Of a DNA stretch of 64,000 bases, positions 30,001 through 33,000 are shown piece after piece. The DNA is from an uncultured Alphaproteobacteria bacterium (GTDB lineage: Bacteria > Pseudomonadota > Alphaproteobacteria > Rs-D84), in NCBI GenBank assembly GCA_944392565.1, contig CALXWX010000003.1, positions 2,008 to 66,007 of the forward strand. The letters run 5' to 3'. Made by a program: the position numbers. Numbering within the stretch: position 1 is the first letter of the stretch; each line of letters opens with the position of its first letter.

Positions 30001-33000
30001 GTTTCTGTATCGCCAACAATAACATTTATCCATTCAATTGTATCTGGCGACAGATTAACTGTGATTGGGGTATCTTCTGCATTTTCCAATGCCTTTTCTT
30101 CATCCCGGGTCAACAGCAATGTCAGTAATATTAATACAACAACAAACGCCGCCGCCAACAACAGCCATTGAATATGTTTTGGCGTATTTTTTCGCAGGTC
30201 TGAAAATTGTTGTTTTAATTTACTCATATTTTATCCGCGATTTTTATTTATTGTATGCGAACAACACTGCAACTGGTTCCGCTGAATTCCAGCAATTTAT
30301 TGCATAAATCTTGTGCTGTTGTTATATCAGACATTGGACCAATGCGCAGACGATACAACCGCGCCGCCGATGATTCAGACCCCAATTCACCAACGCCCTG
30401 TTCATCAACCGCAAAGAATACCATGTCTTTATATGGTGTTAAAATACCCTGACCATCATCACCACTGAACTTTGCCAACAGATTTGACCAATAATCATTT
30501 AATGCCTTGACCGATGTGTCTGCTTTTAATTCGACTGCAACCCCGGTTTGATTGCTGGTTATTAATGGGATATTCGTATTCGGCAAGAATGAACCCGCGG
30601 TCAGCCGTTCTGTTGGTATCATTGTGATACCACTGGTTGATGCGCCACCGCCGGTCGCCGGTAATGCATAACCCGCCGGTGCGTAATACCCAGCTGTTGT
30701 CCCGCCCATTGGCATATTGCCAACCATCATCGGTGTTGTTGTATAACCATTTGCCGATGCATTTATCGCATTAACATCTGCGGTGTACGCAATATTGTTC
30801 AATGATTGCCCCGACATTAAACTTTGTGCAACATTTGCCTCTGCCAGTGCCATAACCGATGCTGTATCTGCAATCAAGAATGGTTTTTCGCGCTTTTTAA
30901 TGCAAACAATTCGTTGCCCACTGCGCAGAACCATATCACCAACAGCCTCTACAATTAATAATCTGCCGTCTTCGCCATCAGTGCGAAAACCAACTGGGGA
31001 TTCGCCGCCTTCGATTAATAATGATACGACTGGGCGTTGGGTCATGGAAATAACCTTGTCCCCAAAATCGATATATGTAAATATTTGATCGCGCCATACG
31101 CGTTCTGGGGCAATAACATAATCGTCTGGATTTGGAACAAATATATCCAAATCAAATCGGAATTCAGATGGATCAATCTTCATTGATTTTATCCAACCAT
31201 AATCTTCACCATCGGCGCCAATTGTGTTTTGCGCATTTGATGCCTTTTTAAATATTGATGCAGACCCACCGGCTGCATTCACCGCGCCTGTATTTGTTGA
31301 TAATGTACCACCGCCATCCAGTGTTACATCAACCTGGGAATATGTAATTTCGCTGGCATTTGATGGTTCACTGCGCAGATAGAATATATATTTATTTCCC
31401 GATTCGCCCGTTACAATCAGATTTGTATCTGAACCCTGGTTGCTGGATACCGGGGTGATATACATTGTACTGCCGCCCTGGGTTGCGTCAATTGAAAACA
31501 GTCCGTCATTTCCGATTACCGCATCTGCAATTTTTTCACCGGTTGGCAATGTTATTAATGTTGTCATACCATTGCGCAGTTTTATTGGCAAAACACTGCC
31601 CTTGGACCATGTCAATTGTGCATATCCGGGTTTTAAGCTGCCTGATGCCATATTTGCGGTTGGGTTATCCCATGCCGCCTGGATGCCATAATTGCCCGTT
31701 GTTGCGCCAAATGCACCACCACACAGCATCGCCAGGCATAACACAGATACATTTAATTTTAACGCCTTTGAAATTGTCATACCAATCCCTTCCGTTTCGT
31801 ATTTAATTTTTTTTAATCGGCACCCGCCAAATATCCTGTATCCAATGGATCGCCGTTCCCAGATTCAACAGTATATTCAGAAACGCGAATGCCCAATGGA
31901 TTATTAAACCGTTCGTCCCATTTAATTGTGGCACTGTCTGCCATATCTAGTTTCAATTGTATTGTATACTCTTTTTTGTCCATCTGTCTATCACTATCTG
32001 AACAAAAATAGCGGAATGTTACAGCATAAGTATTATCAGTTCTGGGGGCAATTGCAATTGCACCATTATCAAATTCAACAGAACAAGAAAATTCGAAATC
32101 TGGCACACCACTCATCCATGCGTTCCACATATTTGTCTGGGTAAATGCATTATAAACATCCGGGGTTGACCAAGTATAAACAACGCCATTTTCATCGTTT
32201 GTCCATTTCGCACGCATTTCATGTGCGTTTGGCACGATTTCATTTCGTGCCTTGATATATTCGCGAATAAACGATCGCTTATAATTATCCATGTTTTCAT
32301 TAATTGGTGCCATTTCGCGCAAGACGACCTCTAAATCATTTTTTGGCGCAGACATTAAAAAGAACACCTGGGGACGATCCAGTGGATACATATTATACAA
32401 TGTTATAACCAACACGCCCAGCACAACCAGCATTGTGGCAAACACAATTGTCATCAATCTGGACAGTAAAACTGGCGGTTCTATGCGGTCTTGCAAGTGT
32501 TTCCTCCCCATCATATATATGTGGATTGTAGACAAATTTGCCCCATGTACGCAAGTGAAAATTATACTAAAATCATATTTTAATTATGTTTTTTTTCAGT
32601 TTTTACTTGCGCCATAATAAATAAAACCTTATAATAAATTCCGCTTGATTTTCTGTGAAAATGTGCTATCTTGACGCAGACTGTTGGGGGTCAAGCGGTA
32701 TAACAAACGGTAAAAGTACAGTTATAGGGGCATAGTTCAACGGTAGAATATCGGTCTCCAAAACCGCGGATGAGGGTTCGATTCCTTCTGCCCCTGCCAC
32801 GAAATTTCGTTATTGGCAACGCCAATTAAGAAATTTCAGTGCCCACCGAAGCGTTGCGCGAAGGCGGGCAATTGCGAGATATTTGGGATATATTTTATGA
32901 AAAAAATACTGGATTATATTAAGTCGGTTCGCAGTGAATGGTTTAAAATTGTTTGGCCATCGCGCGACAGTGTTATTCGTGCAACTATTATGATTTTAAT

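What the first reader, a model, noticed from the sequence alone, without database searches (positions are those of the whole stretch)
30248..31780. VirB9 homolog fused to a C-terminal SPOR (septal peptidoglycan-binding) domain
After the two VirB9 domains (~aa 1-310) comes a Gly/Ala/Thr-rich flexible linker. The final ~70 aa (FFAVDEQG...ARLYRLRIGPMSDITTAQDLCNKLLEFSGTSCSVVRIQ) resemble a SPOR domain, including similarity to the SPOR tail of the PBP5/6 encoded at 19985-21166 in this same window. Canonical VirB9 has no peptidoglycan-binding module; its OM anchoring goes through the VirB7 lipoprotein, which is absent here. A SPOR-tethered VirB9 would pin the outer-membrane core complex to peptidoglycan. 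This is a domain architecture I do not recognise as described.
Basis: partly seen in the sequence, partly recalled or inferred. Interest (0 to 1): 0.7.

Follow-up and report, generated by a model that had tools for sequence, protein, structure and literature searches.

The report
VirB9 secretion subunit with SPOR-like tail
A core outer-membrane subunit (VirB9) of a type IV secretion system in a tiny-genome gut bacterium carries, on a long flexible tether, a domain with the fold of cell-wall-binding SPOR domains; no paper in the library searched describes this combination, it is widespread in one group of Alphaproteobacteria, and it may anchor or position the machine on the cell wall.

Summary
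ORF 30248..31780, on the minus strand, encodes a 510-aa secreted protein. It has the two VirB9 domains (Pfam CagX, E 3.6e-20; the best fold matches are solved VirB9 structures). A low-confidence Ala/Thr/Gly-rich tether follows (aa 299-412). The protein ends in a 98-aa domain (aa 413-510) with beta-alpha-beta-beta-alpha-beta topology. Of the solved structures with a known function, the closest to this domain are the SPOR domains of RlpA and CwlC. Pfam SPOR is its only family hit, and a marginal one.

The fusion is not a one-off. All 80 Candidatus Enterousia species genomes listed carry it intact and in the same gene neighbourhood. Roughly half of the 89 long VirB9 cluster representatives examined have the same tail. 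So do complete virB/virD4 clusters on RefSeq plasmids of Sphingosinicella, Erythrobacter and Microvirga, where the gene is annotated only as TrbG/VirB9.

- The tail shows no significant similarity to the PBP5/6 SPOR domain in this window.
- Relatives with the tail also encode a VirB7-like lipoprotein, so the tail is not a VirB7 substitute.
- The glycan-contacting glutamine of SPOR domains is replaced by glutamate in about 97% of tails, so peptidoglycan binding is plausible but not assured.

I found no paper describing this architecture. Verdict: a new variant of a known kind, of moderate interest.

The parts
30248..31780 (-). Whole gene: VirB9 homolog with C-terminal SPOR-like domain (510 aa plus stop codon)
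   Evidence: ORF list and translation. Pfam CagX E 3.6e-20 plus SPOR. Intact in 80 of 80 Enterousia species genomes listed.
31703..31780 (-). Signal peptide, aa 1-26 (MTISKALKLNVSVLCLAMLCGGAFGA)
   Evidence: Read from the sequence. Modelled as helix 2-20. No canonical lipobox. No signal-peptide predictor was run.
31316..31648 (-). VirB9 N-terminal beta-sandwich domain, aa 45-155
   Evidence: AlphaFold pLDDT 82-90. Foldseek matches to TrwF/VirB9 NTD: 7o3t_B (TM 0.78 normalised to the target) and 8rt6_v (0.83).
31169..31315 (-). Gly/Ala-rich inter-domain loop, aa 156-204
   Evidence: pLDDT 31-43 over aa 161-200. Least conserved stretch, 44% identity at aa 161-180.
30887..31168 (-). VirB9 C-terminal domain, aa 205-298
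   Evidence: Foldseek matches to VirB9 CTD structures: 2ofq (TM 0.80), 2n01, 7o3j_B. aa 201-320 are 94-99.6% identical across 80 species.
30545..30886 (-). Flexible tether, aa 299-412 (Ala/Thr/Gly/Asn-rich). Its first ~20 residues are highly conserved; the middle is variable.
   Evidence: Composition. pLDDT 34-43. 50% identity at aa 341-380 against 99.6% at aa 301-320.
30251..30544 (-). SPOR-like domain, aa 413-510. Strands at 413-421, 454-460, 474-483 and 505-509; helices at 424-439 and 486-500. E417 lies at the SPOR Gln position. R477 and R479 lie on strand 3. C493 and C504 are invariant.
31813..32535 (-). virB8, immediately upstream in the same orientation
   Evidence: Pfam VirB8 E 1.8e-11. 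Present in 80 of 80 loci.
27765..30227 (-). Long virB10 (820 aa), immediately downstream
   Evidence: Pfam TrbI at aa 399-602, E 4.3e-16; NCBIfam VirB10 domain. Present in 80 of 80 loci.
27126..27473 (-). Conserved 115-aa ORF after virB10; possibly the last gene of the cluster, function unknown
   Evidence: No Pfam hit. Found at the same position in 71 of 80 loci; 72% mean identity over the 70 with a long match.

Best explanation
The gene encodes the VirB9 outer-membrane core subunit of a chromosomal P-type (VirB-like) type IV secretion system in a Candidatus Enterousia bacterium. Enterousia is a gut alphaproteobacterium of order Rs-D84 with a genome of about 0.9 Mb.

Shown:
- The two canonical VirB9 domains are followed by a disordered tether of about 110 residues and a 98-residue domain with the SPOR (RNP-like) fold.
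- The tail is under purifying selection.
- The tail is confined to one block of a quick tree of the VirB9 core region, which suggests it is ancestral to a large clade of VirB9 proteins from Alphaproteobacteria and unnamed metagenomic contigs.

Inferred:
- The tail hangs below the outer-membrane ring and binds peptidoglycan glycan strands through its beta-sheet face.
- Because the core complex is multimeric, the whole machine would then be fastened to the cell wall by many weak contacts.
- If the tail keeps the SPOR preference for peptide-free 'denuded' glycans, the subunit would be captured at the division septum and the machine installed at new poles, as the AMIN domains do for the PilQ secretin.
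- The two invariant cysteines probably form a stabilising periplasmic disulfide.
For: - VirB9 identity: Pfam CagX E 3.6e-20; the top 14 Foldseek hits are all VirB9-family subunits; the gene sits between virB8 and virB10.
- SPOR-like tail, sequence: Pfam SPOR is the top hit in 10 of 10 diverse tails (15-29 bits), five of them over nearly the full profile, in register. SPOR matches 12 of 90 full-length representatives, best E 3.5e-6. NCBI names isolated fragments of this tail 'SPOR domain-containing protein'.
- Basic residues: the strand-3 motif Y-R-L-R aligns with the invariant F-R-V-R of the canonical PBP5/6 SPOR domain of the same genome. SPOR domains use a basic patch there to bind the MurNAc carboxylate (PMC6895207).
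- Tether: pLDDT 34-43 over aa 299-409; its middle is variable.
- Selection: 80 of 80 species genomes carry an intact 503-534-aa ORF. Identity to the window protein averages 82% over the tail, against 78% for the NTD and 50% for the middle of the linker. Synteny is conserved.
- Spread: 48 of the 90 sequences in alignment A1 (the window protein plus 47 of 89 long representatives) end in the two-Cys tail, and these fall in one contiguous block of a neighbour-joining tree of the VirB9 core. Tailed VirB9 genes sit in complete virB2-B11/virD4 clusters on plasmids of Sphingosinicella, Erythrobacter and Microvirga.
- Precedent for wall-binding modules on envelope machines: OmpA-like DotK and Dis1 in the Dot/Icm outer-membrane complex (PMC9302130); PilQ AMIN domains recruit the pilus machine to division sites (PMC5285504).
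Against: - The conserved SPOR Gln (Pfam position 8), which donates hydrogen bonds to the MurNAc lactyl carboxylate and the GlcNAc N-acetyl group (PMC6895207), is Glu in 209 of 216 unique tails (Asp 6, Gln 1). The usual Phe at position 12 is Asp. A carboxylate there should disfavour the canonical ligand.
- Pfam support is marginal: 19.4 bits in the whole protein, below the cut-off of 21.
- A profile of the tails finds no SPOR chain in the PDB by sequence. A bona fide SPOR profile finds only CwlC, however.
- The tails on plasmids of cultured bacteria are too divergent for Pfam (13 bits or nothing).
- No binding or localisation data exist.
- The rest of the secretion system (virB2-B7, virB11, virD4) is not in the window, so whether the machine is complete in this genome is unknown.
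Confidence: 0.5

Rival explanations
1. The SPOR-fold tail has been re-purposed as a protein-protein or ring-building module of the core complex. It would dock on VirB10, on the VirB7-like lipoprotein or on neighbouring tails to form an extra peripheral ring, as the N0 domain of Xanthomonas VirB7 does. Its two invariant cysteines might pair with the conserved PCAC motif of the lipoprotein.
For: - The glycan-contacting Gln and the Phe are replaced throughout the family, while other surface positions are almost invariant (E417, LRIGP, C-terminal VVRxQ), pointing to a conserved but different partner.
- Relatives with the tail always show a VirB7-like lipoprotein carrying a conserved '(K/R)(S/T)PCAC' motif.
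- VirB7-VirB9 disulfides are known in Agrobacterium (my own knowledge, not checked here).
- The CTD and the first 20 residues of the tether are about 99% conserved, consistent with tightly co-evolving contacts.
Against: - A variable, disordered tether of about 110 residues suits reach towards a distant target better than a fixed docking site.
- The two strand-3 arginines of the SPOR basic patch are retained.
- Azospirillum p5 keeps the VirB7-like gene although its VirB9 has no tail, so the lipoprotein does not depend on the tail.
Confidence: 0.25
2. The tail is still a cell-wall glycan reader, but with altered specificity. The Gln-to-Glu and Phe-to-Asp changes would retune it to a different glycan feature, for example de-N-acetylated (positively charged) sugars or another modified strand, either in the bacterium's own wall or in that of a partner cell.
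For: - Glu at the Gln position is conserved in 97% of tails, while the PBP5/6 SPOR domain of the same genome keeps Q and F. This argues for selection for a different ligand rather than decay.
- Simulations in PMC6895207 indicate that canonical SPOR rejects N-deacetylated glycan because the Gln contact is lost. An acidic side chain would complement an amine.
Against: Purely inferential. Nothing is known about the peptidoglycan chemistry of Enterousia. The acidic residue is not retained in the most divergent tails, for example Microvirga 'IILGPY'.
Confidence: 0.15
3. The fusion is an artefact or a decaying remnant: a mis-assembled or frameshift-fused ORF, or a relic secretion-system fragment with no function.
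For: - Only virB8, virB9 and virB10 are present in the 64-kb window.
- In one distant lineage the tail is called as a separate 116-aa ORF (L081-L083).
Against: - 80 of 80 species genomes carry the same intact ORF in the same neighbourhood.
- VirB9 is more conserved (75.6% mean identity) than YidC, LspA or PBP5/6 in the same loci.
- The split calls in L081-L083 differ from one assembly to the next (a frameshift, a run of N, an in-frame stop) at 3.6-4.6x coverage for the two assemblies whose names record it, so they look like assembly errors.
- Plasmid homologs lie in complete virB/virD4 clusters.
Confidence: 0.03

Closest known systems
Canonical VirB9/TrbG/CagX outer-membrane core subunits (A. 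tumefaciens VirB9, pKM101 TraO, R388 TrwF, X. citri VirB9)
   Same: Signal peptide, N-terminal and C-terminal beta-sandwich domains, and a gene placed between virB8 and virB10. Pfam CagX E 3.6e-20. The best fold matches are 6gyb_B, 8rt6_B, 7o3t_B, 3jqo_B and 2ofq.
   Different: About 210 extra C-terminal residues (tether plus SPOR-like domain). Solved VirB9 chains are 95-258 residues long. Scores far below the NCBIfam VirB9 equivalog cut-off (48.9 against 217.7 bits). No virB7 gene next to it in this window.
SPOR domains (Pfam PF05036): RlpA, FtsN, DamX, DedD, CwlC
   Different: Glu replaces the conserved glycan-contacting Gln, and Asp replaces the usual Phe. The cysteines lie in helix 2 and strand 4, not strand 1 and the helix 2-strand 4 loop region as in FtsN. 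The loops are longer (98 aa against about 76). It is attached to a secretion-system subunit rather than to a division protein or a cell-wall enzyme. Binding is untested.
Peptidoglycan-binding modules of other envelope-spanning machines: PilQ AMIN domains (type IVa pili), DotK/Dis1 OmpA-like domains (Dot/Icm T4BSS), GspB/OutB (T2SS)
   Same: An outer-membrane channel component carries or recruits a wall-binding domain that anchors the machine. For PilQ, the domain also recruits the machine to the division site, so that it ends up at the poles (PMC5285504; PMC9302130; PMC9239104, title).
   Different: A different fold (SPOR-like, not AMIN, OmpA-like or LysM). The domain is fused directly to VirB9 of a type IVA system; in Dot/Icm the wall-binding domains sit on separate auxiliary lipoproteins.
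Xanthomonas citri VirB7 with C-terminal N0 domain
   Same: An accessory globular alpha/beta domain appended to a core-complex subunit of a VirB-type system (my own knowledge; the core-complex structure 6gyb is the best match to the VirB9 part).
   Different: There the extra domain is on VirB7, has the N0 fold and forms an ordered outer ring. Here it is on VirB9, has the SPOR fold and sits on a disordered tether.

Membership tests
VirB9/TrbG/CagX (PF03524) | Match to the family profile above the curated threshold | tested here: met
   Pfam CagX 73.1 bits against a cut-off of 34.2, E 3.6e-20, aa 55-296. 90 of 90 long relatives also match.
VirB9/TrbG/CagX (PF03524) | Two beta-sandwich domains (NTD, CTD) superposable on solved VirB9 structures | tested here: met
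   AlphaFold domains at aa 45-155 and 205-298. The top 14 Foldseek hits are all VirB9-family subunits, E 3.5e-17 to 1.8e-5.
VirB9/TrbG/CagX (PF03524) | Encoded between virB8 and virB10 in a virB-type cluster | tested here: met
   virB8 at 31813..32535 and virB10 at 27765..30227, same strand. The order is conserved in 80 of 80 loci.
VirB9/TrbG/CagX (PF03524) | Equivalog-level match to canonical VirB9 (NCBIfam TIGR02781) | tested here: not met
   48.9 bits against a cut-off of 217.7. It is a divergent family member, not an equivalog of Agrobacterium-type VirB9.
VirB9/TrbG/CagX (PF03524) | Partner VirB7 lipoprotein encoded with it | tested here: not met
   No small ORF with a lipobox near the cluster, and no ORF anywhere in the window with the PCAC motif of the relatives' lipoprotein. 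A VirB7-like lipoprotein is present next to virB8 in relatives L081, L084, L085, L086 and L087. It may lie elsewhere in this genome.
VirB9/TrbG/CagX (PF03524) | Part of a complete T4SS (VirB4, VirB6, VirB11 and/or VirD4 ATPases and channel) | not testable with these tools
   None of these genes is among the large ORFs of the window. The rest of the genome could not be read. Plasmid relatives do have full clusters.
SPOR domain (PF05036) | Match to the family profile above the curated threshold (21 bits) | tested here: inconclusive
   19.4 bits in the whole protein. 22.8 bits when the tail is scanned alone, covering only profile positions 38-76. Relatives score 15.2-28.7 bits, five of them over positions 5-8 to 75-76. 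12 of 90 representatives match at E 0.01 or better.
SPOR domain (PF05036) | [quoted passage not shown] | tested here: met
SPOR domain (PF05036) | Conserved Gln on strand 1 (Pfam position 8; RlpA Q270, FtsN Q251, DamX Q351) that contacts MurNAc and GlcNAc | tested here: not met
   E417 in the window protein. Across 216 unique tails: Glu 209, Asp 6, Gln 1. The register comes from the Pfam alignments and was checked on the PBP5/6 SPOR domain, where Q328 falls on position 8. The residue's role is described in PMC6895207.
SPOR domain (PF05036) | Aromatic residue (usually Phe) at Pfam position 12 that stacks on the glycan | tested here: not met
   Asp in 193 of 220 tails. The PBP5/6 of the same genome has F332 there.
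SPOR domain (PF05036) | Basic patch on the sheet that binds the free MurNAc lactyl carboxylate | tested here: inconclusive
   R477 (Arg or His in relatives) and R479 (235 of 240) on strand 3 align with R54 and R56 of the canonical PBP5/6 SPOR profile. The side-chain geometry could not be inspected because no model coordinates were available.
SPOR domain (PF05036) | Binds denuded peptidoglycan glycans and localises to the septum | not testable with these tools
   Needs biochemistry and microscopy.

The most novel reading that the evidence does not exclude
The Glu-type SPOR tail is a dedicated positioning device for a type IV secretion system. It would read a specific peptidoglycan feature: septal denuded glycan, or a modified glycan that canonical SPOR domains reject. 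VirB9 monomers would then be captured at the division site, and the machine pre-installed at new poles and fastened there without a VirB1-type wall-cutting enzyme. That would be a built-in targeting mechanism for type IVA systems. It would be shared by a whole clade of alphaproteobacterial conjugative plasmids and retained as a core function in tiny-genome gut bacteria that probably depend on other cells.
Probability: 0.2. Interest if true: 0.75.

Novelty: new variant of a known kind. Interest (0 to 1): 0.55.

Why it matters
How type IVA secretion and conjugation machines cross the peptidoglycan layer, attach to it and find their place in the cell is still poorly understood. Known wall-binding parts belong to other machines (the PilQ AMIN domains) or are separate auxiliary proteins (DotK and Dis1 in Dot/Icm).

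A wall-reader fold fused to the core subunit VirB9 gives a simple, testable handle on this question. The fusion is conserved across a large clade that includes plasmids of cultured Sphingomonadales and Hyphomicrobiales. One can delete or swap the tail and watch localisation, stability and transfer.

It also defines a distinct SPOR subfamily with Glu in place of the signature Gln. That subfamily could widen what SPOR-fold domains are known to recognise.

Finally, it shows that Enterousia keeps a virB8-B9-B10 module under strong selection. These are abundant gut bacteria with genomes of about 0.75-1.0 Mb and no respiration (PMC12306168). The finding hints that a secretion or contact apparatus is central to their way of life.

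Tried and rejected
1. Direct similarity of the tail to the PBP5/6 SPOR domain of the window: BLASTP E 51. hhalign gives only probability 8-15% over 34 columns. Rejected as evidence.
2. Sequence search of the PDB with the tail profile: no SPOR hit. This says little, because a genuine SPOR profile (PBP5/6 tails) finds only CwlC and the single PBP5/6 tail reaches only E 0.16. One search queried the wrong end of PBP5/6 by mistake and is irrelevant.
3. The idea that the tail replaces VirB7: rejected, because tailed relatives carry a VirB7-like lipoprotein.
4. Separate VirB9 and SPOR genes in L081-L083 as 'Rosetta-stone' evidence: rejected. The junction differs between assemblies (a frameshift, a run of N, a stop codon), and the two assemblies whose names record coverage are at about 3.6-4.6x, so assembly error is likely.
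5. Taxonomy of the distant tailed clusters through cluster look-ups: almost no names were returned.
6. Profile search for the tail in other protein contexts: it returned only short fragments at contig ends, so I cannot say whether this tail type occurs outside VirB9.
7. The AFDB fold library was unavailable.
10. Duncan et al. 2013, on FtsN SPOR mutants, is not in the library.
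Full report
**What is there.** The coordinates delimit a real ORF, but on the minus strand: 30248..31780, 510 aa, ATG start. It lies between virB8 (31813..32535, Pfam VirB8 E 1.8e-11) and an unusually long virB10 (27765..30227, 820 aa, TrbI domain at aa 399-602). Both are on the same strand. The cluster is embedded in housekeeping genes: yidC, lspA and kefB-like on one side, and secE/nusG, the genes for ribosomal proteins L1 and L10, and rpoB and rpoC on the other. 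None of the large ORFs I scanned in the 64-kb window is VirB4, VirB6, VirB11 or VirD4.

**The VirB9 part.**
- Pfam CagX/VirB9 matches aa 55-296 at 73.1 bits (cut-off 34.2, E 3.6e-20).
- A full-length AlphaFold model (alignment A3) has two confident beta-sandwich domains at aa 45-155 and 205-298. They are separated by a low-confidence Gly/Ala-rich loop.
- The 14 best Foldseek matches in the PDB are all VirB9-family subunits: X. citri VirB9 (E 3.5e-17), R388 TrwF, Legionella DotH, the F-plasmid outer-membrane core complex, CagX, the pKM101 outer-membrane complex and the VirB9-CTD/VirB7 complexes.
- The protein is nevertheless divergent. It scores 48.9 bits against the 217.7-bit cut-off of the NCBIfam VirB9 equivalog.

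**The linker.** Residues 299-412 are Ala 16%, Thr 13%, Gly 11% and Asn 9%. AlphaFold models them at pLDDT 34-43. The middle of this stretch (aa 341-380) is the most variable part of the protein after the inter-domain loop, at about 50% identity among orthologs. Its first 20 residues are almost invariant.

**The C-terminal domain.**
- Modelled alone from 24 diverse tails (alignment A2), it gives pLDDT 87.5 and pTM 0.77. The order of elements is strand, helix, strand, strand, helix, strand.
- Foldseek against the PDB ranks the P. aeruginosa RlpA SPOR domain first and second (E 4.9e-4, probability 1.0, TM 0.75 normalised to the target) and DedD SPOR sixth. The rest are generic ferredoxin-like folds with TM scores of about 0.45 or less.
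- Pfam SPOR scores 19.4 bits in the whole protein, just under the 21-bit cut-off. It scores 22.8 bits when the tail is scanned alone.
- For 10 of 10 diverse tails, SPOR is the top and practically the only Pfam hit (15-29 bits). Five of them align from profile positions 5-8 through 75-76.
- Twelve of 90 full-length representatives match SPOR at E 0.01 or better (best 3.5e-6).
- Many homologs already carry a precomputed PF05036 label, and NCBI names isolated fragments 'SPOR domain-containing protein'.

SPOR domains share less than 20% pairwise identity (bioRxiv 10.1101/2022.07.01.498525). Weak sequence signals combined with a clear fold match are therefore what a true but divergent member would give.

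The tail is not detectably similar to the SPOR tail of the PBP5/6 encoded at 19985..21166. BLASTP gives E 51 and does not even align the SPOR region. Profile-profile comparison of the two families gives only probability 8-15% (P 0.002-0.005). That match covers 34 columns of strand 3, helix 2 and strand 4, although it is in register.

**A distinct SPOR subfamily.**
- In 241 unique tails, two cysteines are invariant (C493 in helix 2 and C504 in strand 4 of the window protein).
- 'LRIGP' at the end of strand 3 is about 98% conserved, and so is the C-terminal 'VVRxQ'.
- The residue at Pfam SPOR position 8 is Glu in 209 of 216 tails, Asp in 6 and Gln in 1. Position 12 is Asp in 193 of 220.
- I checked the register on the PBP5/6 SPOR domain of this window, where Q328 falls on position 8 and F332 on position 12.
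- According to the RlpA-glycan crystal structures, that Gln is the only residue highly conserved among solved SPOR domains. Its amide donates hydrogen bonds to the MurNAc lactyl carboxylate and to the GlcNAc N-acetyl group. The Phe stacks on the glycan, and a basic patch binds the carboxylate that is exposed once amidases remove the stem peptide (PMC6895207).
- The tail keeps two arginines on strand 3 (R477, R479). They align with the invariant R-V-R of the canonical PBP5/6 SPOR profile.
- The tail has therefore lost the Gln and the Phe. I call it SPOR-like: the fold is met and profile membership is marginal, but the signature residue is not met.

**Distribution.** The organism is a Candidatus Enterousia (order Rs-D84). 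This is a gut alphaproteobacterial genus with genomes of about 0.75-1.0 Mb and no TCA cycle, respiration or flagella (PMC12306168; taxonomy).
- A scan of species-representative genomes found 554 relatives. The best 80 (71-99% identity) are all Enterousia or uncultured gut Alphaproteobacteria from humans, chickens, ruminants and mice. They include a closed 958,618-bp MAG, OZ007020.1.
- All 80 have an intact 503-534-aa ORF. Mean identity to the window protein is 78% for the NTD, 94-99.6% across aa 201-320, 50% in the middle of the linker and 82% in the tail.
- The order L1 gene - nusG | virB8 - virB9 - virB10 - orf115 | yidC - lspA is conserved. VirB9 (75.6% mean identity) is better conserved than YidC, LspA or PBP5/6.
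- In a search of 1.84 billion cluster representatives, 467 proteins matched. Of the 89 long ones, 47 end in the two-Cys tail. In a quick neighbour-joining tree of the VirB9 core, these fall in one contiguous block, with about ten exceptions. This fits one ancient gain with some losses or truncated gene calls.
- Among annotated plasmids, the closest VirB9 genes (30-38% identity in the core) lie in virB/virD4 clusters of Sphingosinicella sp. BN140058, Erythrobacter aureus, Microvirga sp. VF16 and Azospirillum argentinense. The clusters of the first three are complete (virB2-B11 plus virD4). The first three carry the tail (430, 432 and 550 aa); Azospirillum does not. These plasmid tails are too diverged for Pfam, and the genes are annotated only as 'TrbG/VirB9 family'.

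**VirB7.** But the tailed relatives do encode one directly upstream of virB8. It is 58-68 aa long, with a lipobox and a conserved '(K/R)(S/T)PCAC' motif (L081, L085, L087, and an unannotated ORF in L084). The tail therefore coexists with VirB7 in this clade and did not evolve as its replacement. In Enterousia the gene may sit with the other missing T4SS genes elsewhere in the genome. I could not check this.

**Most likely mechanism.**
- Shown: a periplasmic VirB9 whose C-terminal domain is followed by a disordered tether and a conserved SPOR-fold domain.
- Inferred: the core complex is multimeric, so the tethers would hang many SPOR-like domains beneath the outer-membrane ring, at the level of the peptidoglycan. 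There they would bind glycan strands through the sheet face and its arginines, fastening the machine to the wall.
- If the preference for peptide-free glycan is retained, VirB9 would be captured at the septum and the machine would end up at new poles. This has been demonstrated for the PilQ secretin through its AMIN domains (PMC5285504). Separate OmpA-like lipoproteins (DotK, Dis1) are auxiliary wall-binding parts of the Dot/Icm outer-membrane complex (PMC9302130).
- The invariant cysteine pair most simply forms an intradomain disulfide. FtsN SPOR also has one, at other positions (PMC6895207).
- I put about 0.5 on this model. The Gln-to-Glu change is real evidence against canonical recognition.

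**Rivals.** The alternatives are a protein-docking or ring-forming role within the core complex (0.25), a glycan reader with altered specificity (0.15), and an artefact or relic (0.03). The last is contradicted by the conservation data.

**Novelty.** No paper in the library contains both 'VirB9' and 'SPOR domain'. The 16 papers with 'SPOR domain' and 'type IV secretion' and the 11 with 'VirB9' and 'peptidoglycan-binding' do not, judging from their titles and abstracts and the two I opened, concern this architecture. The Enterousia genome paper does not mention secretion at all. On the other hand, the two Pfam labels already sit side by side on some database entries. Both parts are well-known kinds, and wall-binding modules on envelope machines are an established theme. 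I therefore rate it a new variant of a known kind, of moderate interest. It would become clearly more interesting if the tail proved to position the machine or to read a non-canonical wall feature.

Noticed in passing
window 27765-30227 (-): The VirB10 homolog is 820 aa, much longer than usual. It has a TM segment, a 'choice-of-anchor D'-like stretch (aa 56-133, NCBIfam E 2e-4), a Pro/Glu-rich region (aa 161-204) and the TrbI domain (aa 399-602). A further extension of about 210 aa ends in a Cys-rich tail (…CPDGGAPDANGCCAGEIYTDMGEQGFNCCPESGGDCFPPIL).
   Followed up: partly
window 27126-27473 (-): A 115-aa ORF directly downstream of virB10 has no Pfam hit. It is found at the same position in 71 of 80 Enterousia loci (72% mean identity over the 70 with a long match). 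It may be an unrecognised component of the cluster.
   Followed up: partly
window 30821-31180 (-), VirB9 aa 201-320: The VirB9 C-terminal domain plus the first ~20 residues of the tether are 94-99.6% identical across 80 species. That is more conserved than NusG (88.6%) or ribosomal protein L1 (88%) in the same loci. Unexplained.
   Followed up: partly
window 19985-21166 (+): A PBP5/6-type D,D-carboxypeptidase (Peptidase_S11, E 2.4e-57) carries a canonical C-terminal SPOR domain (29.3 bits; Q328 and F332 at the signature positions). This is itself a less common pairing of a carboxypeptidase with a septal-wall reader.
   Followed up: partly
window 55934-58639 (-) and 61904-63379 (+): A 901-aa protein has Chlamydia polymorphic-membrane-protein repeats (E 7e-10), and a 491-aa protein matches the Protochlamydia outer-membrane protein family 'Pom' (E 2.5e-8). 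These are chlamydia-like surface proteins in an alphaproteobacterium with a reduced genome.
   Followed up: no
window 51341-53716 (+): A 791-aa ORF has no convincing Pfam family (best hit E 0.001, below its cut-off).
   Followed up: no
window 15273-17213 (-): A ComEC-type competence channel (Competence domain E 4.4e-52 plus DUF4131) is encoded in this roughly 0.9-Mb-genome organism.
   Followed up: no
L081 5772-5960; L085 7675-7851; L086 7647-7835; L087 7961-8167; L084 ~12950-13150 (unannotated): Small lipoproteins (58-68 aa) directly upstream of virB8 in relatives have a lipobox and a conserved '(K/R)(S/T)PCAC' motif. They are VirB7-like genes, annotated only as hypothetical or not annotated at all.
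   Followed up: partly
L081 8348-16351: In a distant tailed lineage, virB9 is followed by a 1355-aa protein made of beta-flower/DUF3659/RHS-like repeats (Bflower_2, E 3.5e-88). Next comes a protein of more than 1311 aa with the same repeats fused to a TrbI (VirB10) domain, that is, a giant VirB10. The gene order virB8 - virB7-like - virB8 - virB9 recalls duplicated Rickettsiales-type clusters (my recollection, not tested).
   Followed up: partly
L081-L083 ~7950-8030: The VirB9 ORF is broken in the linker in three assemblies of the same lineage, each in a different way: a frameshift, a run of N and an in-frame TAA. The 116-aa SPOR piece is therefore called as a separate gene in public gene sets. 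This is most likely assembly error at low coverage in a repetitive linker.
   Followed up: yes
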